Source: Candidatus Parcubacteria bacterium
GTDB taxonomy: Bacteria > Patescibacteriota > Minisyncoccia > Phycocordibacterales > Phycocordibacteraceae
Assembly (NCBI GenBank): GCA_034666125.1
Contig: JAXDML010000009.1
Span: 975-64,974, forward strand
Direction: 5' to 3'
Length of the DNA stretch: 64,000 nt
A program made the position numbers and the translations under genes. The stretch's first letter is position 1, and the number at the start of each line of letters is the position of its first letter. The notes below the pieces were generated by a model that saw only the letters and a program-made list of their open reading frames with translations, had not been told where the DNA came from and did not search any database. This document shows, piece after piece, positions 14,540 to 49,041 of this stretch.

Positions 14540-14574
14540 ATAGTGCCTAGCGTAGCACTAAGGCCCTTTCGCGG

Positions 14575-15960: not shown

Positions 15961-15967
15961 ATATAGG

Positions 15968-17869: not shown

Positions 17870-17915
17870 ATATAGGGAGTATAACGTACGACGACACGGA
17901 TCCCGACGCTGGAAA

Positions 17916-19755: not shown

Positions 19756-19757
19756 AG

Positions 19758-22646: not shown

Positions 22647-22716
22647 GCCCCTATTATAGGGGTCTATGAAGACTTTATGAAAAGTTGCGATTCAAAGGTG
22701 GGGATAAGTCAAGTCC

Positions 22717-23703: not shown

Positions 23704-24707
23704 TGCGAGGTGCGTACGAAGACGCTTGGGATGGGGACCGCGGTGACTCCCGCGGCGCCTCCGGTGAACGTTGACGGGAGCGCTCCAAAGGTGAAAGCGA
23801 CGCTCCAGCCGAGGTTCGGCGCGGTGCCGAGCGCCGAGGGGTAGCCCAGGATCGGAACGAGCGAGGCGACGGCGAAAGTGCGGATGGTCGGAGCCGTCGC
23901 GTTCGTGACGTACGCGAGCCAGTACATGCCGGGGTCGAGCGTTACCGGCAGGCCGGTCGTATACGTCTTCACGCCGGTGGTCGCGCCCGACTGCGTACCG
24001 GCGTCAACGACGAGCGCCCCAGGATACAGGTTCCCGTTATCGGCGTAGATGCCGATGCGCGGCGTGCTTCCCGTGCCGAGGGTCGTCACGTTGATGGCCA
24101 TCTGGTCGATGGTCGTGATCTTGCTTATGACGAACGGGATCGCGAAGAGCGTGTTCGCGGCTGGTGCGCCGGTGGTGAGGGCGGTTCCGGTCACTTCGGC
24201 GGTGTACCACTGGTTAAGCGTCGAACCCTTGGTCCGGTACGCGGAGATATCGAAGTCGCGGCGCTGGAGGGTGCGCCAGTTCGTGCCATCGGATTGAAGC
24301 GTTACCGACTCGCCGCGCTGCGCGAGCTGTATCGTCAAAAGTCCGTCGATGGTCTCCGAAGCGTTCGGGTCGATCGTCACCAGGTTCGCGAGTGCCGCGT
24401 CGATCTTCTTTATGAAATACACCTGTTTGGGGGTGGTTGCCGAAGCTGCGGGAAGCGTGAGGGTGATCGCGCCCGAGGTCGCGTCCGCAAGAACGACGGT
24501 CTCGGTCGCGGTCAGGGTCGCGTTACCGGTCTTAGTGACCTGGTTGAGATCAAGGTCACTGAAGGCATGTCCCGGGTTCGGCGTCGTTGCCAGCACGAAA
24601 CGGACGATCGAGAACGTGATGCCGATAAGGAGTACCGCGCTCAACAGCACGTTGAGCGGCGTGACGAAACGGGAGGCCTTACTCGGCCGGAGGCGCATCT
24701 GGTGCAT
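23700..24707 (-). CDS. Membrane-anchored secreted beta-rich protein
   Basis: N-terminal TM (LNVLLSAVLLIGITFSIV). Confidence 0.5.
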   Translation of the reverse strand: MHQMRLRPSKASRFVTPLNVLLSAVLLIGITFSIVRFVLATTPNPGHAFSDLDLNQVTKTGNATLTATETVVLADATSGAITLTLPAASATTPKQVYFIKKIDAALANLVTIDPNASETIDGLLTIQLAQRGESVTLQSDGTNWRTLQRRDFDISAYRTKGSTLNQWYTAEVTGTALTTGAPAANTLFAIPFVISKITTIDQMAINVTTLGTGSTPRIGIYADNGNLYPGALVVDAGTQSGATTGVKTYTTGLPVTLDPGMYWLAYVTNATAPTIRTFAVASLVPILGYPSALGTAPNLGWSVAFTFGALPSTFTGGAAGVTAVPIPSVFVRTSQ

Positions 24708-26199
24708 CGTTTTCTAATGGTACTACGGGCTCCGGCTCGGGTTCCGGGCTCTCAACAGGCGGCCCCGGATCCTCGTCCGGCGGTACCTCGATCACCGGCA
24801 CCGGAGAAGGCTCCCCTTCTGCGGGCGGGACCTCGGACGTGGTCGACGCGGTCGAGGACGCAAGACGTGCCGCGAGTATGCCCGGGATGTCCTCAGGGAG
24901 CGCGACGGTGACGAGCGTCTGGCCGAGGGAGCCGCGCGCTATGCACTGGGACAGGTACAGATTGCTGCAGTGCCATTTCTGCGTGGTGTTAACGAGCATG
25001 AAGCGCCCCGGGAAAAGCGTTTTCGCTTCGAGAGCGACCGTGCCGTCGTCCCCGACGATAGCCGCGTACACGTTCGACGCTTCCGGTGCGGTATCCGGAT
25101 CATCGAGCCAGTACACCTGGACGGCGCTACGGGGCTCCGAACTGCTGATGACCATGAGGTCCGTCATGGCATAGAGGTCCTTGTCGGCGAAGAAGCGTGT
25201 CACGGCAAGCGGATCGTAACCAACGCGCAGCTCCATCCCGTCGAGGTACACCGGCGGCGCGCCGTCCAGGGTCGCGCTGCTCCGCACGCTTATCTGGAAG
25301 CTCGACAGATTGGTCCAGGACGTCTCGGGCGGGACCGGGATAGAGAAGGTCGTCGGCACGACGTGCTCCTTGTCGAACGTGCCGAGCGAATGCCAGGTGG
25401 TGCCGTCGAGCGTGTAGCGGACCTCGATGAAGGCCGCGTTCGGAAGGACCACGGGCACCTCTTCGGGCGGCGCGGGTCCGTCCGGAAGCGGATCCGGTTC
25501 GGGGGCCGGAGGCTCTTCCTCCTGCGCATATGCGGTGGCGACGAGACGTTTCAGCAGCGACACGGGACCCGGGTCTGCGGCAGGCTCAGGAGTGGATTCA
25601 GGAGCGGTATCTGCCGGTTCTTCAACGGGCGGCTCCGCAGGCGGAGCTGGAGGTTCTTCCGATGCCGGAGCCTCTTCAAGAGGCGTGTCCTTGGGCTCGA
25701 TAAGCTCGAACGACGGCTCACTCCCTGCGGGGGCATCGAGCACCTCCCGGCTCGACGAGGCGAAATCCTCTCCCGAAACGACCGGCGGGTCCTCCGCTCG
25801 CTCAGTGCTCCATGCGAGGAGAAGCGTGAGGGTCTTCGGCTCCGTCCCCGGAGGGATATCCGCGGTGAAGCCGCCGCAGAATATCTCGGACACCGTGTCG
25901 GCAGGCAGGATCGCCGAGGATCCTTCGGCGAAGGCGTGCAGGTTCGATGCGTCTTCGGTCAGTTCGCCCTGCGCGCGCTCGGGATTGTCCCATCCCCCGA
26001 GGCAAGCGCTCGGGTACAGGGTCAGCGTCTCTGCGTTCAATACGGAACGTATGAAAAGGAAGCTTGAGCCGCCGGCGAGGACCAGCATGGTGACCGAAAA
26101 GACCACGAAACGCCTCGAGAGACGCCGCGTACGTGCAGGAATAGAGGGCTGGATATCGTGATACAGCCGGCTCTTAGGTCTTCGGCGGAAGAGACTCAT
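24679..26199 (-). CDS. Membrane-anchored Pro/Glu-rich surface protein (506 aa)
   Basis: N-terminal TM; long P/E/A-rich low-complexity region. Confidence 0.5.
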   Translation of the reverse strand: MSLFRRRPKSRLYHDIQPSIPARTRRLSRRFVVFSVTMLVLAGGSSFLFIRSVLNAETLTLYPSACLGGWDNPERAQGELTEDASNLHAFAEGSSAILPADTVSEIFCGGFTADIPPGTEPKTLTLLLAWSTERAEDPPVVSGEDFASSSREVLDAPAGSEPSFELIEPKDTPLEEAPASEEPPAPPAEPPVEEPADTAPESTPEPAADPGPVSLLKRLVATAYAQEEEPPAPEPDPLPDGPAPPEEVPVVLPNAAFIEVRYTLDGTTWHSLGTFDKEHVVPTTFSIPVPPETSWTNLSSFQISVRSSATLDGAPPVYLDGMELRVGYDPLAVTRFFADKDLYAMTDLMVISSSEPRSAVQVYWLDDPDTAPEASNVYAAIVGDDGTVALEAKTLFPGRFMLVNTTQKWHCSNLYLSQCIARGSLGQTLVTVALPEDIPGILAARLASSTASTTSEVPPAEGEPSPVPVIEVPPDEDPGPPVESPEPEPEPVVPLENDAPDAPPAE

Positions 26200-32429: not shown

Positions 32430-33767
32430 CTAGGCGGGAATGGGATAGTCCTTCGTGAATTCGCGTATCTCGTCACGAATAACCCCTAATTCTTTATTAC
32501 TCTTCAGGGATTCATTAAATTCTTTAAGGTACGCAGTGCGTTCCTTCATATCGGTCGGCAGTCTGCGATCGCCTACGGCTTCTACGACGCGCGCTATCCA
32601 TTCGGCCACTTTTCCCATTTCCTTTTCCTTCATTCCGCGGGTAGTAAGGGCGGGGGTGCCGAGGCGGACTCCGCTCGGATAGAACGGTGATGCCGGATCC
32701 TTAGGCACGGTGTTCTTGTTCGCCGTCATTCCGGCCGCTTCCATCGCGTCGCTTACGAATACCCCGCCCCCGGGACCGAGTATCGGCGCGAGGTCCATAA
32801 GGAGGAGATGATTCTCCGTTCCGCCCGATACGAGCGTAAGCCCGTGCTTCTTTAGCCCTTCGGCGAGCGCCTTGGCGTTTGCCACTACCTGGTGGCCGTA
32901 CGCTTTGAACTCCTCGGTCGTCGCTTCCTTAAGCGCGATGGCGATGGCGGCAGTCTGGTGATCGTGCGGGCCGCCCTGGAGACCCGGGAATACGGCCTTG
33001 TCGAGCTTGGCCGCGAGGTCGGGATCCTTCGCCAGGCCGCGTTCGGTCGTCATGATGATGCCGCCGCGCGGGCCGCGAAGCGTCTTGTGGGTCGTGGTCG
33101 TGACTATGTGCGCATGCGGGACCGGGGACGGATGCGCGCCTGCCGCGATAAGGCCCGCGACGTGCGCGATGTCCGCCGCGAAGTATGCTCCGACCGAGTC
33201 CGCTATCTCTGCGAACTTCTCGTACTCATACAGGAACGGATATGCCGTCGCGCCTGCCCAGATAAGCTTCGGCGCATGCTCCTTCGCGAGCGCCCACACC
33301 TCGTCCATGTCGATGCGTCCGTCTTCCCGCACGTGGTACGGGACGCTGTTATAAAAGATGGCGGTCGCCGAGATCTTCCACCCGTGGGTCAGGTGCCCGC
33401 CGTCCGGAAGGTTGAGTCCCATGATCGTGTCGCCCGGATTCGCGGTCGCGAGGTACACCGCGAGGTTGGCGGGGCTTCCGGAGTACGGCTGCACGTTCGC
33501 GTGCGCGACGCCGAACAGCGACTTCGCGCGCTCGATCGCGAACGTCTCCACCTGATCGATGAACTCGTTGCCGTTGTAGTAGCGTTTGCCCGCGTACCCT
33601 TCCGAGTACTTGTTCGTGAGGATGCTGCCCATCGCCTCCATGACGGCTGCTGAGGCGTAGTTCTCGGATGGTATGAGCTCGAGCCCTTCAGCCTGTCGCT
33701 TCTCCTCGCCTACTAGGGCGTGATATATGTCCTCGTCTTCGTTCCTGATGTGAGCGTAGGGATCCAT
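32430..33767 (-). CDS. glyA: Serine hydroxymethyltransferase
   Basis: SHMT signature (TTTTHKTLRGPRGG), PLP lysine and overall conservation. Confidence 0.9.
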   Translation of the reverse strand: MDPYAHIRNEDEDIYHALVGEEKRQAEGLELIPSENYASAAVMEAMGSILTNKYSEGYAGKRYYNGNEFIDQVETFAIERAKSLFGVAHANVQPYSGSPANLAVYLATANPGDTIMGLNLPDGGHLTHGWKISATAIFYNSVPYHVREDGRIDMDEVWALAKEHAPKLIWAGATAYPFLYEYEKFAEIADSVGAYFAADIAHVAGLIAAGAHPSPVPHAHIVTTTTHKTLRGPRGGIIMTTERGLAKDPDLAAKLDKAVFPGLQGGPHDHQTAAIAIALKEATTEEFKAYGHQVVANAKALAEGLKKHGLTLVSGGTENHLLLMDLAPILGPGGGVFVSDAMEAAGMTANKNTVPKDPASPFYPSGVRLGTPALTTRGMKEKEMGKVAEWIARVVEAVGDRRLPTDMKERTAYLKEFNESLKSNKELGVIRDEIREFTKDYPIPA

Positions 33768-33782
33768 GGTCAGATCATATAG

Positions 33783-34475
33783 TCAGGGCTTGAGGAGCGC
33801 GAGTACGGCCTGCACGATCTCTCCGTGAATGTCCTCTCGCGCACGCATGGTGCCGTCCTTTTCGCAGTCGACGACCCTCCAGTTCGGCTCATGCGAGGCG
33901 AGCCACGTCGCGGTCTCATGGCTTCGTTCCAGATACGCCCGATCGTCCTCGACCGTATCCTTTTGCCCGTCATCAAGGGACGAGTTCTTCGATGCGCGTT
34001 TCTGTAAGAGGAGTTCGAGGCTTATGTCCAGGGGAACGCGCAAATAAAAGATGGCATCGGGACGCGGAACGCCGAGTACGCCGTGCTCGATGAGCTCGAG
34101 CCACGAGAGGAACCGCTTCCGTTCCTCGACGTCGGCGATCTTGCCGCCTTGGTGTATCTGATTGGCGCTCGTGAAGCGGTCGGCGACCACAACGGTTCCG
34201 GCTTCCAGGTGCTTCCGGATAGCGTCGGAGGATTCGAACCGGTCGAGGGCGTACAGCGTGGACGCGATCTTCGGGTCGAGGTTCACGAAGTCGCCGTGCC
34301 GGCCCGACAGGCATTCGCCGATGAGCGTGCCGAAGACGTTCCGGTCGTATGCAGGGAAATCAACGCGTTCGGCCGGCACGCCCTTCGCGTTCAGGTACTC
34401 CGCAAGAAGCCGCGACTGGGTCGCCTTTCCCGAACCGTCGTTGCCGTCGAAAACGAGTAGAAGTCCCTTGCGCAT
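33783..34475 (-). CDS. tmk: Thymidylate kinase
   Basis: P-loop DGNDGSGKATQ, DRF motif (ADRF), typical length. Confidence 0.85.
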   Translation of the reverse strand: MRKGLLLVFDGNDGSGKATQSRLLAEYLNAKGVPAERVDFPAYDRNVFGTLIGECLSGRHGDFVNLDPKIASTLYALDRFESSDAIRKHLEAGTVVVADRFTSANQIHQGGKIADVEERKRFLSWLELIEHGVLGVPRPDAIFYLRVPLDISLELLLQKRASKNSSLDDGQKDTVEDDRAYLERSHETATWLASHEPNWRVVDCEKDGTMRAREDIHGEIVQAVLALLKP

Positions 34476-34481
34476 GATTGG

Positions 34482-34910
34482 TTACAGGCCGGTCGTGCCG
34501 TACGCGCCGCGGTCGGGACTCCCCAGTGACGCCTCTTCCTTCCAGGTGACCCGGTCATACGGAAGCACGACGATCTGCGTCACGCGTTCTCCGCGCTTCA
34601 CCTCCACGGGCGCGTCGGTGAAGTTGTAGAGCGCCGCATGATACTCGTCCTTATCTCCCGCGTAATCCTCGTCAAGGATACCGATGCCGTTCGCGAGCAT
34701 GAGACCGCGCTTCTGCAGCGAGCTTCGTGCGGCCATGAGCACGAAGTGTCCGGGCGGCGGCTGTATGGCAACGTTCAACGGGAATACCGTTATGGATTTC
34801 GGGGCTACGGTCGCGGTCTCGCGCACGCACAGATCCATGGCGGAGGCGCCTGCCGTCTTGTACTCGGGGAGCGGCAGGTCCGCATCCATCCTCTTTATAG
34901 GCACCTTCAT
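34482..34910 (-). CDS. dut: dUTP diphosphatase
   Basis: dUTPase motifs (AGASAMDL, PGHFVLMAARSSL, GIGILDEDYAGD). Confidence 0.85.
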   Translation of the reverse strand: MKVPIKRMDADLPLPEYKTAGASAMDLCVRETATVAPKSITVFPLNVAIQPPPGHFVLMAARSSLQKRGLMLANGIGILDEDYAGDKDEYHAALYNFTDAPVEVKRGERVTQIVVLPYDRVTWKEEASLGSPDRGAYGTTGL

Positions 34911-34959: not shown

Positions 34960-35862
34960 ATGAAGAACCCCATCACGCTCACGAAAATCCACTCCCTGAA
35001 CGAGCTCAAGGACATGCTCCGGAAGATCTCCTACCGCGGCGTGTATACGTCGGACGGCGAGAAGGTCCTGCCGTACAAGGACGCCCGGTTCTCTATCACG
35101 ACGGTGTACCCGCAGTCGTCCCCAGGGTCTTCTCCGCACATACGGATCGGCAGGCGTCGGGAACCTCTCTTCACACCCCAGCCGACGATCTATGAGAACC
35201 AAACGAAGACGCTCGAGGAGGCGGACAAGTTCCTCCTGGCGCACGACATGAAGATGAGCAGCTTGCGGGGAGCGGTCGAATACGCCTGGGAGGGGCGTGG
35301 CGAATTCCATATGCTCCCCCCGGTCATCGAGAAGCACTCCTACTACCTGAAGAACGGGTACCTCGACCTCCCGCACCTGCTCAAGCGGTTCAAGGGTCTT
35401 CGCGTAAAAGATGCCGCGGGGAACCTGCATCCGCTCTCGGAGCGTACCCTACGCTCCTTCTATATCGACGAGGTGAGCAGCATCGACCATTTGGATGTCT
35501 TCAACTCGAACGTACCGATCATCAACTACGGCCTCGGACATAACGGGGTGTTCACGTTCTATATCGTCTGCGACGGAGCCCATCGCCTCGACTACGTGCT
35601 CGAGAAGATCAAGCAGCCCATGAACGTCCTCCTGGTAGAGCCGGCGACCGACGAGGAGACCCTGTATCCCTATTACGCCTTCCCGGTCCCCTTCCGCCCG
35701 TCGCTGCGGCTCTCGAGCAAGCAGTCGGAGAAGATGTACCATCGGCTGGAACGCGACAAGATCCATCTTTTCAACGACTTCATACGGAAGGTCCTGCATT
35801 ACGACTGGGAGTCGGCCGGACTCAAGGTGAGCAAGCTGCGGTCTAACGTGGAGATCTATTGA
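34960..35862 (+). CDS. Hypothetical protein (300 aa), first gene of the putative nucleotide-modification island
   Basis: Start at MKNPI. Normal composition, while the overlapping antisense ORF is R/L-rich. No family recognised; contains GHNGVFTFYIVCDGAHR. Confidence 0.5.
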   Translation: MKNPITLTKIHSLNELKDMLRKISYRGVYTSDGEKVLPYKDARFSITTVYPQSSPGSSPHIRIGRRREPLFTPQPTIYENQTKTLEEADKFLLAHDMKMSSLRGAVEYAWEGRGEFHMLPPVIEKHSYYLKNGYLDLPHLLKRFKGLRVKDAAGNLHPLSERTLRSFYIDEVSSIDHLDVFNSNVPIINYGLGHNGVFTFYIVCDGAHRLDYVLEKIKQPMNVLLVEPATDEETLYPYYAFPVPFRPSLRLSSKQSEKMYHRLERDKIHLFNDFIRKVLHYDWESAGLKVSKLRSNVEIY

Positions 35863-35871
35863 GCCTGCCCT

Positions 35872-36750
35872 ATGGATGCTCCTGCCGTCGATTCCGCTCT
35901 CGCCCGGTCGCTCGAGCTCTCCCTGCCGCCCGGCACGCAGGCAGTGACTGGTTCGGTCGCCGTCTCAAGGGACGGAACCTGCTATTCAGCAGGCTCAGTC
36001 GGGTCGCAGACCCATCTGCTCGACATCCCTTCCGAACTCGCCGCGCTCGTGCGGGCCGTGCAGCATAACGACGTACATATCAAGGAGGTCCGCACAGTTA
36101 CGACCGATCCCCTCGCGTCGGTCTCGCCGCTGGTGCTGAAGATACTGGCTGACCATGGCACGCGCATCGGCACCGCCATGCGATATGTCGTACAGGATAC
36201 GTCCGGGAAGATCCTGTTCGAGAGCGCCGACGTGCGCGAGCTTCTCCCGTGGTACACCGAACCGGGTACGGCTCTCGCTTCGCTAATGCAACGCACGGCG
36301 GGACCTGCGAAAAGCCGGCTCGACGAAGCGTCCGGACTGTCCATCGAGTTGCAACTACGGTCGTGGGCGCTGAGGGGCCGCGAGCGGAACTTCCCGACGT
36401 ACGACGCCGCTTCCGGGTATGGCGCGGCGGTCCTTACGAAGACCGGCGACATCTACTATGGTGGGCAATACTCGACTTATGAGCACCGCCTCGGCGTGCA
36501 TGCGGAGATGGGCGTGCTCCTGAACGCGCTCATGGACGGTGTGCGTGACATCACCCACATCGGGGTTGCCTCCTCCAAATTCCCCGACACTCCGTGCAGT
36601 CCGTGCGGATGCTGCCGCCAGCTCATGGCCGAACTCTCGCTGAAGTGCGGACTCTCGCCTGTCGTATATCTTTTCGCGTCAGAGAACGAGGAATTCGCGT
36701 TATATACCCTGGACGAGCTGTTACCTGCACAATGGACAAACAAGAAATGA
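35872..36750 (+). CDS. Tandem-duplicated cytidine/deoxycytidine deaminase-fold protein (degenerate N-terminal repeat, catalytic C-terminal repeat)
   Basis: C-terminal half: GAAVLTKTGDIYYG ... HAEMGVLLNAL ... SPCGCCRQL ... ELLP matches the cytidine deaminase H/C/C zinc motif. N-terminal half has the same fold pattern but the zinc ligands are replaced (IPSE, SPLVLKIL). Confidence 0.75.
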   Translation: MDAPAVDSALARSLELSLPPGTQAVTGSVAVSRDGTCYSAGSVGSQTHLLDIPSELAALVRAVQHNDVHIKEVRTVTTDPLASVSPLVLKILADHGTRIGTAMRYVVQDTSGKILFESADVRELLPWYTEPGTALASLMQRTAGPAKSRLDEASGLSIELQLRSWALRGRERNFPTYDAASGYGAAVLTKTGDIYYGGQYSTYEHRLGVHAEMGVLLNALMDGVRDITHIGVASSKFPDTPCSPCGCCRQLMAELSLKCGLSPVVYLFASENEEFALYTLDELLPAQWTNKK

Positions 36751-39152
36751 CTACCACAGCACGTCCCCAATTCCCCATAGTTGATGCGTTACTGCTCACG
36801 CCGCCCGAGGCCGCCGATGGCCACATCGGCATCTGCACGAATACTGCGGCGCCGGGACAGGTGTTCAACGACATCTCCGAGGAGAACCGTCCTGCGGTCT
36901 CGGTCCTGGGCCCTCTGATCGTGAGCCGCGACGGGACCGAACGGATGATCCTGAATGCGCTTGTGCATCCGACCGTCACGTATCTCATCCTCTTTTCCGA
37001 GGAGTCGCTCACCTTCTCTCCGAGCACCAATCTGCTGCTTGCCCTGATGCACGGTCTCGACGGCACGCGCGAGGGAAACTACATCGCCAAGGGAGAAGCC
37101 GCCTCGGCCCACCTCCCGAACCTTTCCAAGGACATCGTGGACCTGTTCCGCGAGAACATCACCGTGCTGCCGCTCTTCATGTCGCAGAACAAGCAGAGCG
37201 CGGCGATTACTGCCGAATATCTTGAATGGCTCGGGTCCCGCGTGCCGGAAGACGTCCTCTCCTTCCTTAAGGAGGCGAACTCGAAGGATAAGAAATACTA
37301 CGATGCGCTGAACGGGCTCATCACGCTCCTCAAGTCGGTACCGCAAAAGAAGAAGGCTATGGTCGAGCTCGATCCCAAGGACTTCCAGCAGCTGCAACCA
37401 CCCAAGATAGCCATCCCGGAAGACCACGCCCCCTCGCCAGCCCTCTTCCGCGTCACGCTCGAAGACAACCTCCTTCGTCTCGACATCGCGGTCGGCGGCA
37501 AATCGTACTTCATGCGCGGAGATGACGACTTCCGCATCGAATATTCCCTGATGAAGTTCCTGGCCGAACGCAAAGAATTGCTTACGCCGCGCGAACAGCT
37601 CCTTATCGGCGCCGAGCTCAACCGCCTCAACGTCGAACGGACTGCCGGCATCGTTTCTGAGCCATTCATAGTGCCAAGTGACGTCGCAGGCACTGAAGAG
37701 ATACTCCTTGAGCCGGCTACGGATCTTATCCCTGACCAGGAGTATTACTACAAGATAGGATTGAAGGACGACGAAGTCTCGGTGATGTGCATGGCCTTCG
37801 ACATCTGCACCGAGGTCTTCGACCTGCGCTCGAAGGGCGCGACCGGGCTCTTCGACTGGCTGGCCGAGAAGGACCGCTTCCAGGTGTACGAGATGGATAT
37901 CCTGCACCGCATGGACGTGGGTGGGCAGATCGGGCGAGCCGTCATCGCCGCGCGCTTCGGCTACTCGTTCGTACAGGACTTCTCGAGCATTTTCAAGGTG
38001 AACACTGAGACCCTGCCGCTCCTGGCCGCCGAAGGCGACTCGTTCCTCGACGTGCACCGCTCTACGCTGCTCAAGGTCTATACCGAAGGCATCACCGAGG
38101 AACACGGGGACGCACGCAAAGGCCTGTCGCGCACCGCGATCGCGCTGGCGATCTATCGTAACGCCAGGCAGGCCTTTGACCGTCTTCCCGAGATCTACAA
38201 GCAGGGCGACCTCTCGACCGAGGAGATGCGCGCGGCATATAAGGCGCAGCTCCTGCGCCTCGATCATGACGGTGACTACAGCTACGGCGAGCGCACGCGG
38301 GTCCATTTCGGTTTCGATCAGCTCGAGAGGGCGATCTCGATACTGCAAAAGGATCCTTCCCGACCTACGCTCATCCAGCGATTCGATCCGACCGTGGACA
38401 TGGGCGCGTCGCTCGATCCGGATACCGGACGGGCGGTCTATACGCATGATCCGTGCCTGACCCACGATGTCCTCTTTTGTATAGACGGGAAACTGCATTC
38501 GTTCCATATCGCTCGCGCGCATAACCTGGCGAACGCGTACCCTGAGAACGTCTTCGGTCTCTTCGATGCATACGCGAGTACCGTACGGGAGGCTCTCAAG
38601 CTCGATTCCGGCGACCTGTACATGCTCTCGAGCCGCGGGAACATCCTTCTTCTCACGGAAGAACAGCGGGTGCGCAAGATCATCGCCGAACCTTCCAAGC
38701 CTATCGGCGAGGTCGACCGCGCGAGCGGGCCGAGACTCTTCGGGGAGAACGTGCGCACCGCAGCAGGGATGGGCGGCGTATCCTACAGCACGGCCCCGCT
38801 TGAGGAAGTTCCCCTGTATGCGCATCCGGTCATCGAGCGCGTGAAAGCCTTCGAAGGCGTCGATACCCTTGCGCGCGCGACCGGCTATCTTAAGCAGAAG
38901 GGCGGCAGTCACAACAATCCGATCCTCACCACGTACCAGGCCGGGCACTCCGATCCGCAGGCAGACCATCTCGCGTTCTTTCAGGCGAATGTCTTCGGCG
39001 AGAAGCTCCACGCGACCGCTGTCTTTACCAATCATGAGCCCGTGCCGGCAGACGACCTGAAGCTCGTTTCGGCCCTTGCCACGACGTACGCGAAGGTCCT
39101 GGACGTCCCGCTCGGGAATGGAAGTATCTTTTACATCAATGGAAACGCCTGA
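36747..39152 (+). CDS. Large fusion protein: about 375-aa domain of unknown function fused to a divergent thymidylate-synthase/pyrimidine-hydroxymethylase (ThyA-fold) domain
   Basis: ATGA start/stop overlap with the preceding gene. ThyA-like blocks FGYSFVQDF, DQLERAISILQKDPSRPTLIQRFDP (compare DQI..[16 protein letters not shown]), DPCL catalytic Cys (compare PCH), HIARAHNLANAYPENVFGL (compare YQRS.D..LG.PFNIASY). The antisense 748-aa ORF is rejected on composition. Confidence 0.6.
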   Translation: MTTTARPQFPIVDALLLTPPEAADGHIGICTNTAAPGQVFNDISEENRPAVSVLGPLIVSRDGTERMILNALVHPTVTYLILFSEESLTFSPSTNLLLALMHGLDGTREGNYIAKGEAASAHLPNLSKDIVDLFRENITVLPLFMSQNKQSAAITAEYLEWLGSRVPEDVLSFLKEANSKDKKYYDALNGLITLLKSVPQKKKAMVELDPKDFQQLQPPKIAIPEDHAPSPALFRVTLEDNLLRLDIAVGGKSYFMRGDDDFRIEYSLMKFLAERKELLTPREQLLIGAELNRLNVERTAGIVSEPFIVPSDVAGTEEILLEPATDLIPDQEYYYKIGLKDDEVSVMCMAFDICTEVFDLRSKGATGLFDWLAEKDRFQVYEMDILHRMDVGGQIGRAVIAARFGYSFVQDFSSIFKVNTETLPLLAAEGDSFLDVHRSTLLKVYTEGITEEHGDARKGLSRTAIALAIYRNARQAFDRLPEIYKQGDLSTEEMRAAYKAQLLRLDHDGDYSYGERTRVHFGFDQLERAISILQKDPSRPTLIQRFDPTVDMGASLDPDTGRAVYTHDPCLTHDVLFCIDGKLHSFHIARAHNLANAYPENVFGLFDAYASTVREALKLDSGDLYMLSSRGNILLLTEEQRVRKIIAEPSKPIGEVDRASGPRLFGENVRTAAGMGGVSYSTAPLEEVPLYAHPVIERVKAFEGVDTLARATGYLKQKGGSHNNPILTTYQAGHSDPQADHLAFFQANVFGEKLHATAVFTNHEPVPADDLKLVSALATTYAKVLDVPLGNGSIFYINGNA

Positions 39153-39828
39153 CTATCTGAACGACATACGCGTGGTCGGCTTCGATCTCGATCAGACGCT
39201 GTACCCGAAGTCCCCGGTCATCGACGAGATGATCCAGTCCTACCTGTACCTGAAGATCGCCGAGCACATGGGCGTAAGCCTGGCCGAGGCCGAGAAGCTT
39301 TTCAAGGGCCGGTACCGCGGCGGGGCGGGCATGAGCGGCCGGGAGACCCTCGAAGACCTCGGTCTTCCGAACGCGTCGGACCTCGTGCAAGAGGCGCTTG
39401 AGCACGCCGACCTTACCTCGGTACTCGTGCCCGACCAGGAGACGAACCTCTTACTGGCTCGCGCGCGGGAGGCTTATGAAGGCATGGATCTCATTACGGG
39501 CTCTAACCTGGAGCAGACTCGAAAGAAGCTCGTCGCGCTGGATATAGGAATGGACGCCTTTTCACATGTCATCACTCAGGATGACGCATGGAAACTGAAC
39601 GGCGACGCGTACCGGCTTTGGCTTTCGTACTATCCGCATCTGGAACCGCATCAGTTCCTGTACGTCGGCGACCGCGCGCGAAGCGATCATGAGGTACCGG
39701 CCTCCCTCGGCATACGCACCTGCCTCGTGTACGTAGAGTCCCCGGACGTCGCCTTGCCTGCCCTGCAGCTCGTGAATCTTCGGGACCTCCGTGACATGCT
39801 TCCGCTGAAAGGTCCGACAGCCAACTAG
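39139..39828 (+). CDS. HAD-superfamily phosphatase
   Basis: Motif I VGFDLDQTLY (DxDxT) and motif IV YVGDRARSD. Overlaps the upstream stop by 14 nt. Confidence 0.65.
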   Translation: METPDYLNDIRVVGFDLDQTLYPKSPVIDEMIQSYLYLKIAEHMGVSLAEAEKLFKGRYRGGAGMSGRETLEDLGLPNASDLVQEALEHADLTSVLVPDQETNLLLARAREAYEGMDLITGSNLEQTRKKLVALDIGMDAFSHVITQDDAWKLNGDAYRLWLSYYPHLEPHQFLYVGDRARSDHEVPASLGIRTCLVYVESPDVALPALQLVNLRDLRDMLPLKGPTAN

Positions 39829-39925
39829 CCCGTCAGGCCGCGATTCTGCTTTCTCCACCCCTGTGGATAGGTGCCTCCGGATCCGCTATACTTCCAGTAG
39901 ATGCAACTTGAACCTGGAGGGTTCC

Positions 39926-40744
39926 ATGGAACTCAACGCACACGATGGCTTGGCTCAAGCCGAACTGTGGCCGGATGTTCTCTCCTTCCATGGGAGAACG
40001 TACGACCACGCAGACGCGGCGACGGCGATCCTCTCGCGGGAAACGCCGAAGCCTATCGGCATCCGGATCCAAGGCCTCCGGCCAGGAGACGTTAAGGTCG
40101 CGAAGAACGGCCTGATCCGTTTCAACTCCGAGGTTTCTCCGGAACAGCAGATCGCGTGGGCGCTTAACGTGCCGCGCGATCCAGAATTCGACGAGGAGGA
40201 CGACGGAATCATCCTGAAGGACGAGAACGACAGGAAGAATTACCTCCATTATCGGCCGGACCTGGAGAAGCTGCTGCTTGCGCTCAGGGGCATCACGCCC
40301 ACGAGGTGGCAGCGGGAGTGGTTCGCTGCGTGCAATCGCATCCGTACCGCGTGCGTGACCCATCTGATCGGTTTGGCACGCCAGATGGATGTCGTCCGGC
40401 CCGGCTATGGTTTCGAAGAACGGGTCACGGATTACTCGGACCAGCACGTGGTCCGGGTACTGAACTACGTGCCGCGGGAGGGGATCATCGCGAAGCCCCA
40501 CACGGACCGCTGCGCGATCACCTTCCATCTGGCAGAATCCGCGCCAGGTCTGTGCGCGTACAACGTCTACGAACGCCGGCCGTACGCAACGCCGAAGACG
40601 CCGTGCGCGCTTTGCTTCTCCGGCCAACAGCTGGAGCGGGTCACGCGCGGCGCAGTTCCCGCCGTCTATCACGAAGTGGAAAACAACACTCCGGGCAGGA
40701 TGCGCTGGGCACTCGTCTTCTTCGGGAAGATGCGTCCGAAATGA
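39926..40744 (+). CDS. 2-oxoglutarate/Fe(II)-dependent dioxygenase
   Basis: HxD...H facial triad (KPHTDRCAITFHL ... YHEV) and the 2OG-binding Arg (RMRWALVFF). Confidence 0.7.
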   Translation: MELNAHDGLAQAELWPDVLSFHGRTYDHADAATAILSRETPKPIGIRIQGLRPGDVKVAKNGLIRFNSEVSPEQQIAWALNVPRDPEFDEEDDGIILKDENDRKNYLHYRPDLEKLLLALRGITPTRWQREWFAACNRIRTACVTHLIGLARQMDVVRPGYGFEERVTDYSDQHVVRVLNYVPREGIIAKPHTDRCAITFHLAESAPGLCAYNVYERRPYATPKTPCALCFSGQQLERVTRGAVPAVYHEVENNTPGRMRWALVFFGKMRPK

Positions 40745-40751
40745 ATGGGTT

Positions 40752-40777
40752 CCGGCTTCGGCCGGGCCCTTTTTACT
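40752..40777 (+). terminator. Terminator for the + strand island (CCGGC ttcg GCCGG then GCCCTTTTTAC)
   Basis: Hairpin plus T-tract directly after the dioxygenase stop. Confidence 0.45.
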
Positions 40778-40780
40778 TAT

Positions 40781-40822
40781 ACGTAACAAAGACCCGCAGG
40801 ACCTTGTCCCGCGGGTCTTTGC
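40781..40822 (-). terminator. Terminator for rplK (AAAGACCCGCAGG..CGCGGGTCTTTG); T-run on the minus strand
   Basis: Convergent back-to-back terminators in the 90-bp gap. Confidence 0.5.
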
Positions 40823-47721: not shown

Positions 47722-49041
47722 TTAGGGCTTCCTATCAACGCTGAGGACGTTGTGCAGCCGTCCGGCTGCTTGCATGCCGCTCGTGAACGCGCCTTCGATA
47801 AAAGCGCCACCGATGTAGTCTCCTGCAAATACTAGAGGTTCGCTAGTCGTTTCTTCTTCCTCGATAAAACGCTCGAGCTTCCTGAAGTATCCCTTTTCTG
47901 CAGTGGGCAAAGCCTCGTCCCGATGCCAGATAAAGCTTGAGAGCGGGGTCGCACCAGGCCTGAAAATGTCTTTCTCCACGTGGCGTGACCCGTCGGTAAG
48001 CGTCTTGAAGATGGTTGCGTTGTCTTTCCCGCGCAACTCCTTGCCGACCCCGTATACCTTTACCCAGCCGACGCGTTTCCCGCGAACGCTGGTACTGCCC
48101 GCCACGGGAGACCCTTCACTACTTGGAAAGACGATACCTCTGGATCCAGGAAGGTCTTCTTTGCGGAACGTACGGCCGACGTATGTGGTAGACGAATATC
48201 GAATACTGTCTATAAACGTCTTGCGCTCCGGGGGCAGGTTCGGGAAGAGTTTTGCAGCAACCGTGGCGGTTGTGGCACACACAATACCGTCTGCATGCAA
48301 AACTCGCTCGTTGTCGTCGTGCGTTACCGTTACTTCGTAGGAACCATTCGGGCGTCTATCCACCTGCGTCGCGGTATGTTCCAAAAGAACCGTACTTCCT
48401 TCGGCCGCCTTTTCCGGAATCCGTTGCAGTCCGCCGCGCATCGTATACGTCCCTCGCGTAAGAACGGCCTTGCCCGCGACGAGCAACAGGCCTTCGCTCG
48501 TCTGCGCGACGTCTTCCGGTGGCCAGTACCAGGTGCCGGTCAGAGCCGGTTGTATGAAGTAGTCAAAAAGTTCGGCGCCTTCCGGAGTCGCTCGGTAGTC
48601 GCCGATGGAAACATCGTCGTACCGGGCAAGTTTCCATGGATGGTGTATATCAATTGATCTCCAATTCCTTAATACTTTCGCGAGAAAAAGAAATCCTTTC
48701 CATTTTGCTTTCCATGAAAGCAGTGTGGTGCCGAAAATCGTACGCAGGCCAAGAAACCGAACCTTTCCTCCCCGTACGATTCCCGCAGAGGCGTGGGGGT
48801 TGCGACAAAGATCTTTATGTAAACCACTCTCCCGCAGGAAGCGGAGCGTATTTGCGTATATATCCATGACGAATCCCGCGCCCTGCTCTAGGACAATGCC
48901 GTCAGTCAGTTTGCTCTTCATGCGTCCTCCCAAACGGTCATTTTTCTCGACGATCGTGACGTCATAGCCCCGTCTGCGGAGGAAGTGGGCAGCGGAGGTG
49001 CCGGCCATGCCTCCGCCTATGACAATAATCCTTTGGCTCAT
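47722..49041 (-). CDS. FAD-dependent oxidoreductase (amine oxidase / protoporphyrinogen-oxidase-like)
   Basis: N-terminal dinucleotide-binding motif IIVIGGGMAGTSAAHFL..VTIVEKNDRLGGR. Confidence 0.75.
   Translation of the reverse strand: MSQRIIVIGGGMAGTSAAHFLRRRGYDVTIVEKNDRLGGRMKSKLTDGIVLEQGAGFVMDIYANTLRFLRESGLHKDLCRNPHASAGIVRGGKVRFLGLRTIFGTTLLSWKAKWKGFLFLAKVLRNWRSIDIHHPWKLARYDDVSIGDYRATPEGAELFDYFIQPALTGTWYWPPEDVAQTSEGLLLVAGKAVLTRGTYTMRGGLQRIPEKAAEGSTVLLEHTATQVDRRPNGSYEVTVTHDDNERVLHADGIVCATTATVAAKLFPNLPPERKTFIDSIRYSSTTYVGRTFRKEDLPGSRGIVFPSSEGSPVAGSTSVRGKRVGWVKVYGVGKELRGKDNATIFKTLTDGSRHVEKDIFRPGATPLSSFIWHRDEALPTAEKGYFRKLERFIEEEETTSEPLVFAGDYIGGAFIEGAFTSGMQAAGRLHNVLSVDRKP

What the first reader, a model, noticed from the sequence alone, without database searches (positions are those of the whole stretch)
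34960..40744. Five-gene island next to dut-tmk-glyA: putative undescribed pyrimidine nucleotide modification or salvage module
Five codirectional, tightly packed genes sit on the opposite strand between the housekeeping dut-tmk-glyA-argS-ileS operon and rplK-nusG-secE. Gaps between the first four are 9 nt, an ATGA overlap and a 14-nt overlap (the fifth follows a 97-nt gap), and a dedicated terminator follows at 40752. The genes encode (i) an unrecognisable 300-aa protein, (ii) a tandem cytidine-deaminase-fold protein, (iii) an 801-aa protein whose C-terminal half has the thymidylate-synthase fold signature with the catalytic Cys, (iv) a HAD phosphatase, and (v) a 2OG-Fe(II) dioxygenase. ThyA-fold enzymes, deaminases, phosphatases and dioxygenases are the enzyme classes used to make 5-substituted pyrimidines (phage hmC/hmU pathways, nucleoside-antibiotic C5-hydroxymethylation, fungal thymine-7-hydroxylase salvage). 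The adjacent SHMT (glyA) would supply the methylene-THF one-carbon unit, and dUTPase and thymidylate kinase handle the flanking nucleotides. I do not recognise this combination in a cellular genome. The alternative is a housekeeping dTMP-synthesis supercluster with accessory genes.
Basis: partly seen in the sequence, partly recalled or inferred. Interest (0 to 1): 0.8.

Follow-up and report, generated by a model that had tools for sequence, protein, structure and literature searches.

The report
Non-canonical thymidylate synthesis operon of Parcubacteria
Four of the five genes form an operon kept at the same chromosomal spot across a whole class of ultra-small (CPR) bacteria; it most likely makes the DNA base thymine with a giant, rearranged thymidylate-synthase relative and an unexpected ParB-like partner, and no paper found here describes this arrangement.

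Summary
The five genes, their spacing and the terminator-like hairpin are real. The unit is 4+1, not five, and it is not an island.

- **Conservation.** G1-G4 keep the same order, between glyA and rplK-nusG, in all 14 related Parcubacteria loci examined. G5, the 2OG oxygenase, is a rare clade-specific add-on.
- **G3 (801 aa).** It reads: MtrA-like domain, middle region with a pterin-binding-type module, archaeal-type ThyA core (catalytic Cys570, Arg590, uracil-type Asn601), then a second, degenerate ThyA copy.
- **G1.** This "unrecognisable" protein is a ParB/sulfiredoxin-fold ParB-CE protein. A ParB-CE gene also sits upstream of G3's sister family.
- **G2 and G4.** Each occurs naturally fused to G3 in other lineages.
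- **Replacement.** One lineage nested among carriers has canonical ThyA, DHFR and dCMP deaminase in exactly this slot. In another CPR genome a shorter MtrA-ThyA fusion sits in a dUTPase-dCMP deaminase-SHMT-FolD operon.

Best reading: a housekeeping dTMP-supply operon built on an undescribed ThyA variant.

Caveat: the folate-binding Asp169 is an invariant Asn, the signature of flavin-dependent ThyA-fold hydroxylases, and no DHFR lies nearby. The chemistry may therefore be new. No literature on the system was found.

The parts
34960..35862 (+). G1: 300-aa ParB/sulfiredoxin-fold protein of the ParB-CE family. It is the conserved partner of G3.
35569..35586 (+). G1 motif C204-D-G-x-H-R209, the phosphate-binding-loop position of the ParB/Srx fold.
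   Evidence: C204, D205, G206, H208 and R209 are invariant in 30 orthologues. The motif is shared with the L021 ParB-CE protein in the hhalign alignment.
35872..36750 (+). G2: tandem cytidine-deaminase-fold protein. The N-terminal half is degenerate and the C-terminal half is catalytic.
   Evidence: PF00383 scores 27.4 bits; TIGR01354 gives 4e-14 but stays below its cutoff. The best PDB match is B. subtilis CDA 1ux1 at 6e-12 over residues 162-289. The H..E and CGxCRQ motifs are invariant in 14 orthologues, and the N-half lacks the zinc ligands. G2 is naturally fused to G3 in P0251, 1111 aa.
36747..37226 (+). G3 residues 1-160: MtrA-like Rossmann-type domain without the corrinoid His ligand.
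37227..38018 (+). G3 residues 161-424: middle region. About residues 330-405 (37734-37961) correspond to a PterinBD-DUF4346-type module. C348 and C354 are invariant.
38019..38711 (+). G3 residues 425-655: archaeal-type ThyA catalytic core. Cys570 is at 38454-38456, Arg590 and Asn601 are present, and Asn593 (38523-38525) replaces E. coli Asp169.
38712..39152 (+). G3 residues 656-801: second, degenerate ThyA-like domain with no catalytic Cys or Arg. It probably acts as a built-in pseudo-subunit.
   Evidence: hhalign against stand-alone methanogen-type ThyA gives probability 96.0%, E 4e-9, over 137 columns. BLASTP of G3 661-800 against the ThyA core of P0251 gives E 9e-4. The direct self-comparison was colinear but weak at probability 3%. 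The order of secondary-structure elements mirrors the active core.
39139..39828 (+). G4: HAD phosphatase, closest to pyrimidine 5'-nucleotidases.
   Evidence: PF00702 scores 29.4 bits against 26.4; TIGR01993 gives 5e-10 but stays below its cutoff. D16-x-D-x-T, T120-G-S-N and G177-D-R-x-x-S-D are invariant in 14 orthologues. G4 is naturally fused to the C-terminus of G3 in P0252, 981 aa.
39926..40744 (+). G5: 2OG-Fe(II) oxygenase. It is a clade-specific accessory gene and not part of the conserved cassette.
   Evidence: PF03171 scores 26.1 bits against 23. H192-x-D, H249 and R258 are present. Only 5 clusters exist in the 5.8-billion-protein database. It is absent from L001-L013. It is present in L017 after G4, and in L018-L020 after DHFR. 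A promoter-like site lies at 39864-39892.
40751..40776 (+). Terminator-like hairpin plus T-run after G5.
   Evidence: Consensus scan. Such sites are not enriched over shuffles.
32430..34910 (-). Divergent neighbours glyA (SHMT, 32430-33767), tmk (33783-34475) and dut (34482-34910). dut starts 49 nt from G1.
   Evidence: Pfam assigns SHMT at 7e-157, Thymidylate_kin at 1e-16 and dUTPase at 7e-19. glyA is next to the cassette in 10 of the 12 loci that reach far enough upstream. dut is next to it in 5 of them, counting a weak 31% match in L005. tmk is there only in the window.

Best explanation
G1-G4 is the vertically inherited, housekeeping thymidylate (dTMP) supply operon of Parcubacteria (Paceibacteria-type CPR bacteria). 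It is built around a non-canonical member of the ThyA superfamily.

**G3** is a single-chain pseudo-dimer. One archaeal-type ThyA core carries the catalytic Cys570, the phosphate-binding Arg590 and the uracil-recognising Asn601. This is followed by a degenerate second ThyA copy that takes the place of the partner subunit. It is preceded by an MtrA-like domain and a pterin-binding-type module that presumably hold the one-carbon carrier.

*Inferred mechanism:* Cys570 adds to C6 of dUMP, and C5 receives a one-carbon unit from a pterin cofactor charged by the neighbouring SHMT. dUTPase, and thymidylate kinase in this genome, handle the adjacent steps.

**G2**, a CDA-fold deaminase sometimes fused to G3, supplies the uracil substrate from a cytosine nucleotide or nucleoside. 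It plays the role that dCMP deaminase plays in canonical operons.

**G4**, a HAD nucleotidase sometimes fused to G3, trims or balances pyrimidine monophosphates.

**G1**, a ParB/Srx-fold ParB-CE protein, is an obligatory nucleotide-binding partner of the large ThyA-type protein. It may be an activator, a regulator or a phosphotransferase. Its role is the least certain.

**G5** is an unrelated clade-specific passenger.

*Shown:* domain architecture, active-site residues, co-conservation, fusions, and replacement by a canonical module. *Inferred:* substrate, cofactor, product, and the roles of G1, G2 and G4.
For: 1. **Synteny.** G1-G4 lie in the same order between glyA/argS/ileS and rplK-nusG in L001-L013 and L017. 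G1 is 52-88% and G3 50-84% identical to the window proteins.
2. **In-situ replacement.** L018 is 91-92% identical in NusG+RplK to carriers L001 and L002 and nests with them in a neighbour-joining tree. Between the same glyA and rplK anchors it has canonical ThyA (TIGR03284 164.8 bits against 108.35; the D169, N177 and PC motifs are intact), DHFR and a dCMP deaminase. It has no G1-G4.
3. **Family context.** A 519-aa MtrA-ThyA-PterinBD fusion of the same superfamily sits in the operon dUTPase - cytidylyltransferase-like - HIT - dCMP deaminase - fusion - SHMT - FolD in another CPR genome, L024.
5. **Rosetta-stone fusions.** G2+G3 occur as P0251 and G3+G4 as P0252.
6. **Partner conservation.** A ParB-CE gene lies upstream of the sister-family 877-aa protein in L021 and L022.
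7. **No alternative synthase nearby.** tblastn finds no canonical thyA, thyX, folA or tdk in the 64-kb window or in any G1-G4 locus.
8. **Not defence, barely phage-like.** There are no defence-system hits, and the only phage-family hit is a thymidylate synthase.
Against: - The residue equivalent to E. coli Asp169, which contacts the folate pterin, is an invariant Asn593. Leu143 is His567, and the hydrophobic folate contacts Leu172 and Phe176 are Asn596 and Glu600. D169N is reported as diagnostic of flavin-dependent 5-hydroxy-dCMP synthases (PMC13326640).
- The best structural matches are exactly those enzymes, 9iqu and 9iqc.
- G3 fails the curated thresholds of every thymidylate synthase model.
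- I could not scan whole genomes, so a thyA or thyX elsewhere in G1-G4 carriers is not excluded.
- A nucleotidase in a synthesis operon is counter-intuitive.
- G1's role is unexplained.
- Archaeal-type ThyA biochemistry is itself poorly characterised (PMC9931769, PMC9012536).
- There are no experimental data.
Confidence: 0.58

Rival explanations
1. G3 is not a methylating synthase. It is a C5 hydroxylase or hydroxymethylase making 5-hydroxy-dUMP or 5-hydroxymethyl-dUMP (or the ribo forms). The cassette would then produce a modified pyrimidine for DNA, for RNA or for a small molecule.
For: Asn593 sits at the Asp169 position, the diagnostic signature of flavin-dependent 5hodCMP synthases (PMC13326640). 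The top structural hits are those enzymes. A polar His567 occupies the Leu143 water-exclusion position, as in hydroxymethylases (PMC13326640). The best-scoring phage relative is annotated as a dUMP hydroxymethyltransferase, phiRSL1 ORF230. A HAD phosphatase could release a modified nucleoside.
Against: - A nested lineage swaps the cassette for plain ThyA, DHFR and dCMP deaminase at the same spot, which argues for the same metabolic output.
- The cassette is universal in the sampled carriers and sits beside SHMT and dUTPase.
- No glycosyltransferase, kinase or other hypermodification gene accompanies it.
- The sister family and many relatives keep Asp at this position, so Asn may only reflect a different cofactor pose.
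- From general knowledge, an O2-dependent hydroxylase would be odd as a core enzyme of largely anaerobic groundwater CPR.
Confidence: 0.14
2. The cassette does make dTMP, but by new chemistry. A flavin or other redox cofactor bound in the altered folate site relays or reduces the methylene, as ThyX does but on a ThyA fold. The pterin is held by the MtrA-like and PterinBD modules. Tetrahydrofolate rather than dihydrofolate is released, so no DHFR is needed. G1 would supply an NTP-dependent activation step.
For: D169N is shared with flavin-binding ThyA homologues. DHFR accompanies canonical ThyA in L018 but is absent from every G1-G4 locus and from the L024 fusion operon. The extra conserved domains carry invariant Cys30, Cys348 and Cys354. 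There is a precedent for a ParB-fold protein activating a pyrimidine-C5 enzyme (PMC13229309).
Against: No flavin- or NAD(P)H-binding motif was identified. DHFR could be encoded elsewhere in the genome. The argument is purely inferential. The sister family that also has a ParB-CE partner keeps Asp.
Confidence: 0.2
3. All five genes, including the 2OG oxygenase G5, form one pathway, for example thymine/thymidine hydroxylase-type salvage or modification coupled to the ThyA-like enzyme.
For: G5 follows G4 on the same strand in the window and in L017. In L018-L020 its homologue again sits at the end of a thymidylate/folate gene set. So in every context seen it lies beside dTMP-synthesis genes.
Against: G5 is absent from 13 of the 14 related loci that carry the cassette and has only 5 clusters in 5.8 billion proteins. 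It is separated by a 97-nt gap containing a promoter-like site. It stays in place when G1-G4 is swapped out, so G1-G4 neither needs it nor is needed by it. It belongs to the generic PF03171 class and shows no hit to nucleic-acid or nucleobase oxygenases.
Confidence: 0.06
4. The region is a horizontally acquired island or an anti-phage defence/toxin module using nucleotide-modifying enzymes.
For: Deaminases, ParB-like proteins and ThyA homologues all occur in phage and defence contexts. A Thermoprotei MtrA-ThyA fusion sits in a virus-like neighbourhood, L023.
Against: GC content equals the surroundings. Synteny is strict across a class, and sequence divergence tracks that of NusG and RplK. There are no PADLOC hits. 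No integrase or mobile-element gene flanks the cassette.
Confidence: 0.02

Closest known systems
Archaeal ('methanogen-type') thymidylate synthase, NCBIfam TIGR03283, and the MtrA-ThyA(-PterinBD/DUF4346) fusion proteins of archaea and other CPR bacteria
   Same: The G3 core aligns over the full length of the stand-alone ~200-aa proteins (hhalign probability 99.5%). It shares the N-terminal MtrA-like domain and the pterin-binding-type module with the 460-520-aa fusions. One such fusion sits in a dUTPase-dCMP deaminase-SHMT-FolD operon.
   Different: G3 scores 47 bits against the 174.6-bit cutoff. It has a ~265-residue middle region and a second, degenerate ThyA copy. Asn replaces the Asp169 equivalent, which the sister family and many fusions keep. 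It is always accompanied by ParB-CE, CDA-fold and HAD genes. The biochemistry of the archaeal family is itself barely characterised (PMC9931769, PMC9012536).
Canonical ThyA + DHFR (FolA) + dCMP deaminase modules
   Same: Same chromosomal slot and same neighbours (glyA, rplK) in the nested lineage L018. Same fold, catalytic Cys, Arg166 and Asn177 equivalents.
   Different: There is no Pfam PF00303 hit. Asp169 is Asn, Leu143 is His and the Arg126-Arg127 pair is not conserved. G3 is a single-chain pseudo-dimer rather than a homodimer. No DHFR lies nearby. The deaminase is of the CDA (nucleoside) type rather than the dCMP-deaminase type.
Flavin-dependent 5-hydroxy-dCMP synthases of phages (HY126 AfhB, PDB 9iqu/9iqc; RB69 gp48; DLP3 gp80)
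   Different: Those enzymes have Asp at the Asn177 position (cytosine-specific) and Glu at Leu143. G3 has Asn601 and His567. They are ~220-240-aa phage proteins sitting beside sugar-activation and glycosyltransferase genes. G3 is an 801-aa cellular housekeeping protein. Flavin binding by G3 is untested.
ThyX (flavin-dependent thymidylate synthase)
   Same: It is a possible functional analogy: dTMP synthesis with no DHFR gene nearby.
   Different: The fold is unrelated and ThyX has no catalytic Cys. No ThyX similarity was found in the window or loci. The analogy is inference only.
ParB/sulfiredoxin-fold proteins used as enzyme partners or enzymes: phage 5mYOX-associated ParB activators (PMC13229309), sulfiredoxin, free serine kinase SerK/SbnI, DndB-type DGQHR proteins
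   Different: G1 has no recognisable HTH or dimerisation domain and no GERR CTP-binding box. Its partner is a ThyA-fold protein, not a TET/JBP dioxygenase. More than half of G1 has no structural relative. No function of the ParB-CE family was found in the literature.
E. coli-type two-domain cytidine deaminase (Cdd)
   Same: G2 has two CDA-fold halves in one chain, only one of which is catalytic, with His-Cys-Cys zinc ligands.
   Different: The domain order is reversed, with the catalytic half at the C-terminus. Scores fall below every CDA equivalog cutoff. G2 is fused to the ThyA-type protein in some lineages, which suggests it feeds that enzyme directly.

Membership tests
ThyA superfamily (thymidylate synthase / dNMP hydroxymethylase fold) | ThyA alpha/beta fold | tested here: met
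ThyA superfamily (thymidylate synthase / dNMP hydroxymethylase fold) | Catalytic nucleophile Cys in a Pro-Cys motif (E. coli C146) | tested here: met
   P569-C570 aligns to P145-C146 and is invariant in 30 orthologues.
Canonical thymidylate synthase ThyA (PF00303 / TIGR03284) | Score above the curated family threshold | tested here: not met
   There is no PF00303 hit at E<=1 and no TIGR03284 hit. A profile of 30 orthologues finds no ThyA chain in the PDB at E<=1.
Canonical thymidylate synthase ThyA (PF00303 / TIGR03284) | Folate-pterin-binding Asp169 and hydrophobic Leu143, Leu172 and Phe176 | tested here: not met
   The equivalents are Asn593, His567, Asn596 and Glu600.
Canonical thymidylate synthase ThyA (PF00303 / TIGR03284) | dUMP recognition: Arg166, Asn177 and Tyr94 equivalents | tested here: met
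   Arg590, Asn601 and Tyr513 are invariant.
Canonical thymidylate synthase ThyA (PF00303 / TIGR03284) | Obligate homodimer donating Arg126'-Arg127' to the partner active site | tested here: inconclusive
   The position-539 equivalent varies (R, K, G, Q, V). A degenerate second ThyA domain within the same chain (hhalign probability 96%) may replace the partner subunit.
Canonical thymidylate synthase ThyA (PF00303 / TIGR03284) | Catalyses dUMP + CH2-THF -> dTMP + DHF | not testable with these tools
   Only indirect evidence exists: in-situ replacement by canonical ThyA and DHFR and the operon context of a related fusion.
Methanogen-type thymidylate synthase (TIGR03283 equivalog) | Score above the 174.55-bit cutoff | tested here: not met
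   G3 scores 47.4 bits, E 1.6e-12, over residues 434-607. Homology itself is clear: hhalign probability 99.5%.
Flavin-dependent 5-hydroxy-dCMP synthase (AfhB / RB69 gp48 type) | Asn at the Asp169 position | tested here: met
   Asn593 is invariant. RB69 gp48 shows R-S-Q-N in the same register (PMC13326640).
Flavin-dependent 5-hydroxy-dCMP synthase (AfhB / RB69 gp48 type) | Asp at the Asn177 position (cytosine specificity) and an acidic residue at Leu143 | tested here: not met
   G3 has Asn601 and His567.
Flavin-dependent 5-hydroxy-dCMP synthase (AfhB / RB69 gp48 type) | Bound flavin and O2-dependent hydroxylation | not testable with these tools
   Requires purified protein.
MtrA (corrinoid subunit of the H4MPT:CoM methyltransferase) | MtrA fold | tested here: met
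MtrA (corrinoid subunit of the H4MPT:CoM methyltransferase) | His84 lower axial ligand of the cobamide | tested here: not met
   His84 aligns to the invariant Phe90. True MtrA and some fusions keep His. That His84 is the cobalt ligand is my recollection of the MtrA structure paper, not something checked here.
ParB/Srx superfamily, ParB-CE family (PF24392) | Score above the Pfam gathering threshold | tested here: met
   G1 scores 26.7 bits against 23, over residues 185-245. hhalign against a 144-bit ParB-CE protein gives probability 94.8%.
ParB/Srx superfamily, ParB-CE family (PF24392) | ParB/Srx core fold with a phosphate-binding G-x-x-R type loop | tested here: met
Chromosome-segregation ParB (CTPase clamp) | GERRxRA CTP box, HTH DNA-binding domain and C-terminal dimerisation domain | tested here: not met
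   There is no PF02195 or HTH hit. The motif is CDGxHR, and the rest of the model is beta-rich with no ParB DNA-binding-domain match.
Cytidine deaminase (CDA; TIGR01354/TIGR01355) | Zinc ligands H/C-A-E and P-C-x-x-C plus the C-terminal LLP motif | tested here: met
   H210-A-E, C245-G-C-C248-R-Q and 'ELLPAQW' occur in the C-terminal half. H..E and CGxCRQ are conserved in 14 orthologues.
Cytidine deaminase (CDA; TIGR01354/TIGR01355) | Score above the equivalog cutoffs | tested here: not met
   52.9 against 113.65 bits, and 33.6 against 275 bits.
HAD phosphatase / pyrimidine 5'-nucleotidase (TIGR01993) | HAD motifs I-IV | tested here: met
   D16-L-D-Q-T, T120-G-S-N and G177-D-R-A-R-S-D are present. 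PF00702 scores 29.4 against 26.4.
HAD phosphatase / pyrimidine 5'-nucleotidase (TIGR01993) | Equivalog threshold for pyrimidine 5'-nucleotidase | tested here: not met
   39.5 against 142.9 bits.
2OG-Fe(II) oxygenase (PF03171) | Pfam threshold and the H-x-D...H facial triad plus the 2OG-binding Arg | tested here: met
   26.1 against 23 bits. H192-T-D, H249 and R258 align to 3oox.
TET/JBP or thymine-7-hydroxylase type nucleobase oxygenases | Specific similarity to nucleobase or nucleic-acid dioxygenases | tested here: not met
   The only PDB sequence hits are 3oox (putative oxygenase), anthocyanidin synthase and an iron/ascorbate oxidoreductase, all at E>=0.01. No structure model was made for G5.

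The most novel reading that the evidence does not exclude
Parcubacteria make their 'thymine' nucleotide by a third, undescribed route. The enzyme is a single-chain pseudo-dimeric ThyA-fold protein with built-in MtrA-like and pterin-binding modules. Its folate-binding Asp is replaced by the Asn that marks flavin-binding ThyA homologues. It works with a ParB/sulfiredoxin-fold partner. Two outcomes are possible. Either it methylates dUMP without releasing dihydrofolate, so no DHFR is needed, or it produces 5-hydroxy- or 5-hydroxymethyl-dUMP, so that the DNA of a whole bacterial class carries a non-canonical pyrimidine.
Probability: 0.25. Interest if true: 0.9.

Novelty: new variant of a known kind. 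Interest (0 to 1): 0.66.

Why it matters
Thymidylate synthesis is essential and a classic drug target, and only two enzyme solutions are known: ThyA with DHFR, and ThyX. Here a large bacterial class appears to rely on a third configuration. It combines:
- a ThyA core of the poorly characterised archaeal type, duplicated into a one-active-site pseudo-dimer;
- fusion to MtrA-like and pterin-binding modules;
- an altered cofactor-binding residue;
- genetic coupling to a ParB/Srx-fold protein, a CDA-fold deaminase and a HAD nucleotidase, with no DHFR gene nearby.

If confirmed, several things follow:
- It would explain what metabolic reconstructions of CPR genomes are really counting as 'thyA'.
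- It would give a tractable entry, through E. coli thyA complementation, into the unresolved cofactor chemistry of archaeal-type thymidylate synthases.
- It would assign a first function to the ParB-CE family.
- It would add a second case of a ParB-fold protein partnering a pyrimidine-C5 enzyme.

The natural swap to canonical ThyA and DHFR in one lineage is a ready-made comparative control.

Tried and rejected
- **PDB sequence searches.** Searches with G1 (single sequence and 30-sequence profile) gave only chance-level hits to MRE11 and GppA. The G3 profile found only MtrA, not ThyA. Structure prediction was needed.
- **First test of G3 internal duplication.** hhalign of residues 420-660 against 655-801 was colinear but only 3% probable. 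The duplication was accepted only after comparison with stand-alone archaeal ThyA gave 96% and after a BLASTP cross-hit.
- **Corrinoid-dependent methyl transfer via the MtrA-like domain.** Considered and set aside, because the cobalt-ligand His is an invariant Phe.
- **Defence or phage origin.** There are no PADLOC hits, and the single PHROG hit is a thymidylate synthase.
- **FolC check.** The two Mur-ligase genes at 59-61.5 kb are murE/murF-like.
- **Canonical genes.** tblastn with E. coli ThyA, FolA and Tdk and T. maritima ThyX found nothing in the window or the G1-G4 loci. ThyA and FolA were validated by their clean hits in L018.
- **Literature.** Searches for Parcubacteria thymidylate synthase, ParB-CE, MtrA-thymidylate fusion, DUF4346/PterinBD and ParB-sulfiredoxin-thymidylate found no description of this system.
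- **Homology between window and L018 genes.** G4 against the L018 213-aa protein and G2 against the L018 deaminase showed no orthology.
- **Not possible here.** Whole-genome presence or absence of thyA, thyX and folA in carriers; a structure search of the G3 middle region alone; models of G2, G4 and G5; and a G1-G3 complex model.

Full report
**Observation.**
- The five + strand ORFs are present exactly as described: G1 34960-35862, G2 35872-36750, G3 36747-39152, G4 39139-39828 and G5 39926-40744.
- The junctions are as stated: a 9-nt gap, an ATGA overlap, a 14-nt overlap and a 97-nt gap.
- A GC-rich hairpin with a T-run follows at 40751-40776. A promoter-like site lies inside the G4-G5 gap.
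- Pfam confirms dut, tmk, glyA and rplK on the opposite strand.
- GC content is the same as in the surroundings.
- A protein identical to G3 is deposited as a hypothetical protein of a 'Candidatus Parcubacteria bacterium' MAG.

**What the proteins are.**
- **G2.** Only the C-terminal half keeps the zinc and catalytic residues (H210-A-E, C245-G-C-C248-R-Q). The best solved relative is B. subtilis cytidine deaminase at 6e-12. The N-terminal half is a degenerate copy.
- **G4.** It is a HAD phosphatase with all motifs intact and is nearest to pyrimidine 5'-nucleotidases, though below that threshold.
- **G5.** It is a generic PF03171 2OG-Fe(II) oxygenase with an intact H-x-D...H triad.

**G3 architecture.** The AF2 model has pLDDT 84.
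- **Residues ~330-405.** These correspond to the PterinBD-DUF4346 module detected in an orthologue and in the sister family.
- **Residues 656-801.** These form a second, degenerate ThyA domain lacking the catalytic Cys and Arg (hhalign probability 96%, E 4e-9; BLASTP cross-hit). G3 therefore looks like a single-chain pseudo-dimer with one active site.

The register against E. coli ThyA is:

| E. coli ThyA | G3 |
|---|---|
| C146 | C570 |
| R166 | R590 |
| N177 | N601 (uracil type) |
| Y94 | Y513 |
| D169 | N593 |
| L143 | H567 |

All of these are invariant or nearly so in the orthologues.

**Conservation and linkage.**
- A scan of one genome per GTDB species returned 13 loci. In all of them G1-G2-G3-G4 are contiguous and in the same order wherever the contig extends far enough. 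They are wedged between glyA(/dut)/argS/ileS and rplK-nusG.
- G5 has no homologue in any of these loci. It has only five clusters among 5.8 billion proteins.
- tmk is next to the cassette only in the window. The slot between G4 and rplK holds different genes in different lineages.
- A profile search of 1.84 billion cluster representatives shows that full-length G3 orthologues form only about eight 50%-identity clusters. It also turned up two natural fusions: CDA-fold G2 + G3 (P0251, 1111 aa) and G3 + HAD G4 (P0252, 981 aa).
- A sister family of 811-906-aa proteins has a strong ParB-CE gene just upstream (L021 and L022). The pairing of a ParB-CE protein with a giant pterin-module/ThyA protein therefore extends beyond the G1-G3 family.

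**Evidence on function.**
- **L018-L020.** The G5 homologue P0245 led to these contigs. Their NusG+RplK are 91-92% identical to those of carriers L001 and L002, and they nest with those carriers in a neighbour-joining tree. Between the same glyA and rplK anchors they carry no G1-G4. Instead they hold a canonical ThyA that passes TIGR03284 and has Asp169, Asn177 and a hydrophobic 143 position. Alongside it sit a HIT-like gene, a dCMP deaminase, a cytidylyltransferase-like gene, a DHFR and then the G5 homologue. This is an in-situ replacement of the cassette by the textbook dTMP module.
- **L024.** In another CPR genome a 519-aa MtrA-ThyA-PterinBD fusion sits in the operon dUTPase - cytidylyltransferase-like - HIT - dCMP deaminase - fusion - SHMT - FolD. 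That is where thyA would be expected, and again there is no DHFR.
- **No canonical genes nearby.** No thyA, thyX, folA or tdk is detectable in the window or in any G1-G4 locus.
- **Conclusion.** Together these points make dTMP supply the most likely role of G1-G4. G2 acts as the deaminase that provides the uracil substrate and G4 as a pyrimidine nucleotidase. G1 is an obligatory nucleotide-binding partner of unknown action.

**What does not fit a plain ThyA.**
- The Asp169 equivalent, which binds the folate pterin in ThyA, is an invariant Asn. A 2026 study reports exactly this change as diagnostic of flavin-dependent ThyA-fold dCMP 5-hydroxylases (PMC13326640). Those enzymes (9iqu, 9iqc) are G3's best structural matches.
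- G3 nevertheless has Asn, not Asp, at the base-specificity position. The sister family and many related fusions keep Asp.
- The hydrophobic folate contacts are polar in G3.
- DHFR accompanies canonical ThyA in L018 but is not seen next to any G3-type gene.
- The cofactor pose, and perhaps the chemistry, therefore differ from ThyA. Two readings remain open: a DHFR-independent, possibly flavin-assisted methylation, or a hydroxylated or hydroxymethylated product.
- Archaeal-type ThyA biochemistry is acknowledged as largely unexplored (PMC9931769, PMC9012536).
- A recent paper shows that phage ParB-like proteins activate thymine dioxygenases (PMC13229309). That is a precedent for a ParB fold serving a pyrimidine-C5 enzyme, but the proteins involved are different.

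**Comparison and novelty.**
- The cassette works like a ThyA/dCMP-deaminase module. G3 is clearly homologous to archaeal-type ThyA, but it fails every curated thymidylate-synthase threshold and one defining residue test.
- It shares one signature with flavin-dependent 5-hydroxy-dCMP synthases but fails their specificity residues and context.
- Database names for G3 homologues are 'hypothetical protein' or an automatic 'thymidylate synthase'.
- Nine literature searches found no description of the architecture, the ParB-CE partnership or the operon.
- I rate it a new variant of a known kind.

**Limits.**
- I could not scan whole carrier genomes for thyA, thyX or folA.
- I could not model G2, G4, G5 or a G1-G3 complex.
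- I could not inspect model coordinates.
- All functional assignments beyond fold, motifs and gene context are inference.

Noticed in passing
L018:1219-6273 (ENA ERZ4903055 k141_2012036); also L019, L020: A close relative carries canonical ThyA, a HIT-like gene, a dCMP deaminase, a cytidylyltransferase-like gene, a 213-aa unknown, DHFR and the G5 homologue between glyA and rplK. This is the exact slot where the window has G1-G5.
   Followed up: yes
L024:3689-9741 (GCA_964422865.1 CAYRCU010000009.1): The operon reads dUTPase - cytidylyltransferase-like - HIT - dCMP deaminase - 519-aa MtrA-ThyA-PterinBD fusion - SHMT - FolD. The cytidylyltransferase-like, HIT and dCMP deaminase genes (same Pfam families; orthology not checked) recur in L018, which suggests a conserved but uncharacterised CPR pyrimidine salvage set.
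   Followed up: partly
P0293 (786 aa; GCA_016648615.1, no DNA held): This protein has two ThyA-like repeats (residues 248-373 and 560-686). The second has Pro-Ser instead of Pro-Cys, so it is an independent case of an active plus degenerate tandem ThyA. It also carries a PterinBD module and lies next to a HIRAN-domain gene.
   Followed up: partly
L023:6001-7569 (P0294; a member of its 90% cluster is named Thermoprotei archaeon): An MtrA-ThyA fusion that keeps the corrinoid-ligand His sits among a resolvase, a PD-(D/E)XK protein and many ORFs without Pfam hits. This looks like an archaeal virus or mobile element.
   Followed up: no
window 33783-34475 (-): tmk lies between glyA and dut only in this genome. 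The closest relative, L017 (95% NusG+RplK identity), has glyA directly followed by dut, so tmk is a recent local insertion.
   Followed up: partly
L002:13072-13635 (-), L006:13096-13677 (-), L008:13062-13640 (-), L011:13106-13711 (-); L017:8871-9452 (+): The slot between G4 and rplK is a variable region. L002 holds an ORF that I judged dCTP-deaminase/dUTPase-like from its sequence alone. Several loci hold ~190-200-aa ORFs of unknown function. L017 holds a GATase after G5.
   Followed up: no
window 13664-26199: This is a run of large ORFs, mostly without Pfam hits. One has dockerin and bacterial Ig-like domains and one has DUF11. GC rises to 0.63-0.65 between 16 and 26 kb. They may be cell-surface proteins.
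   Followed up: no
window 36789-39035 (-) and 39833-40789 (-): Long antisense ORFs of 748 aa and 318 aa overlap G3 and G5. They are probably artefacts of the 60% GC coding strand opposite and not genes.
   Followed up: no
window 47722-49041 (-): A flavin-containing amine-oxidase/protoporphyrinogen-oxidase-like FAD protein lies next to a P-type cation ATPase. It falls below all equivalog cutoffs and its function is unclear in a CPR genome.
   Followed up: no
L015:5707-7527 (Pseudomonas phage phiH1): The phage ThyA homologue gp60 has Asp at the Asn177 position, which indicates cytosine specificity, yet it is annotated as thymidylate synthase. It sits beside a dCMP deaminase and a DHFR, so the annotation may be wrong.
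   Followed up: no
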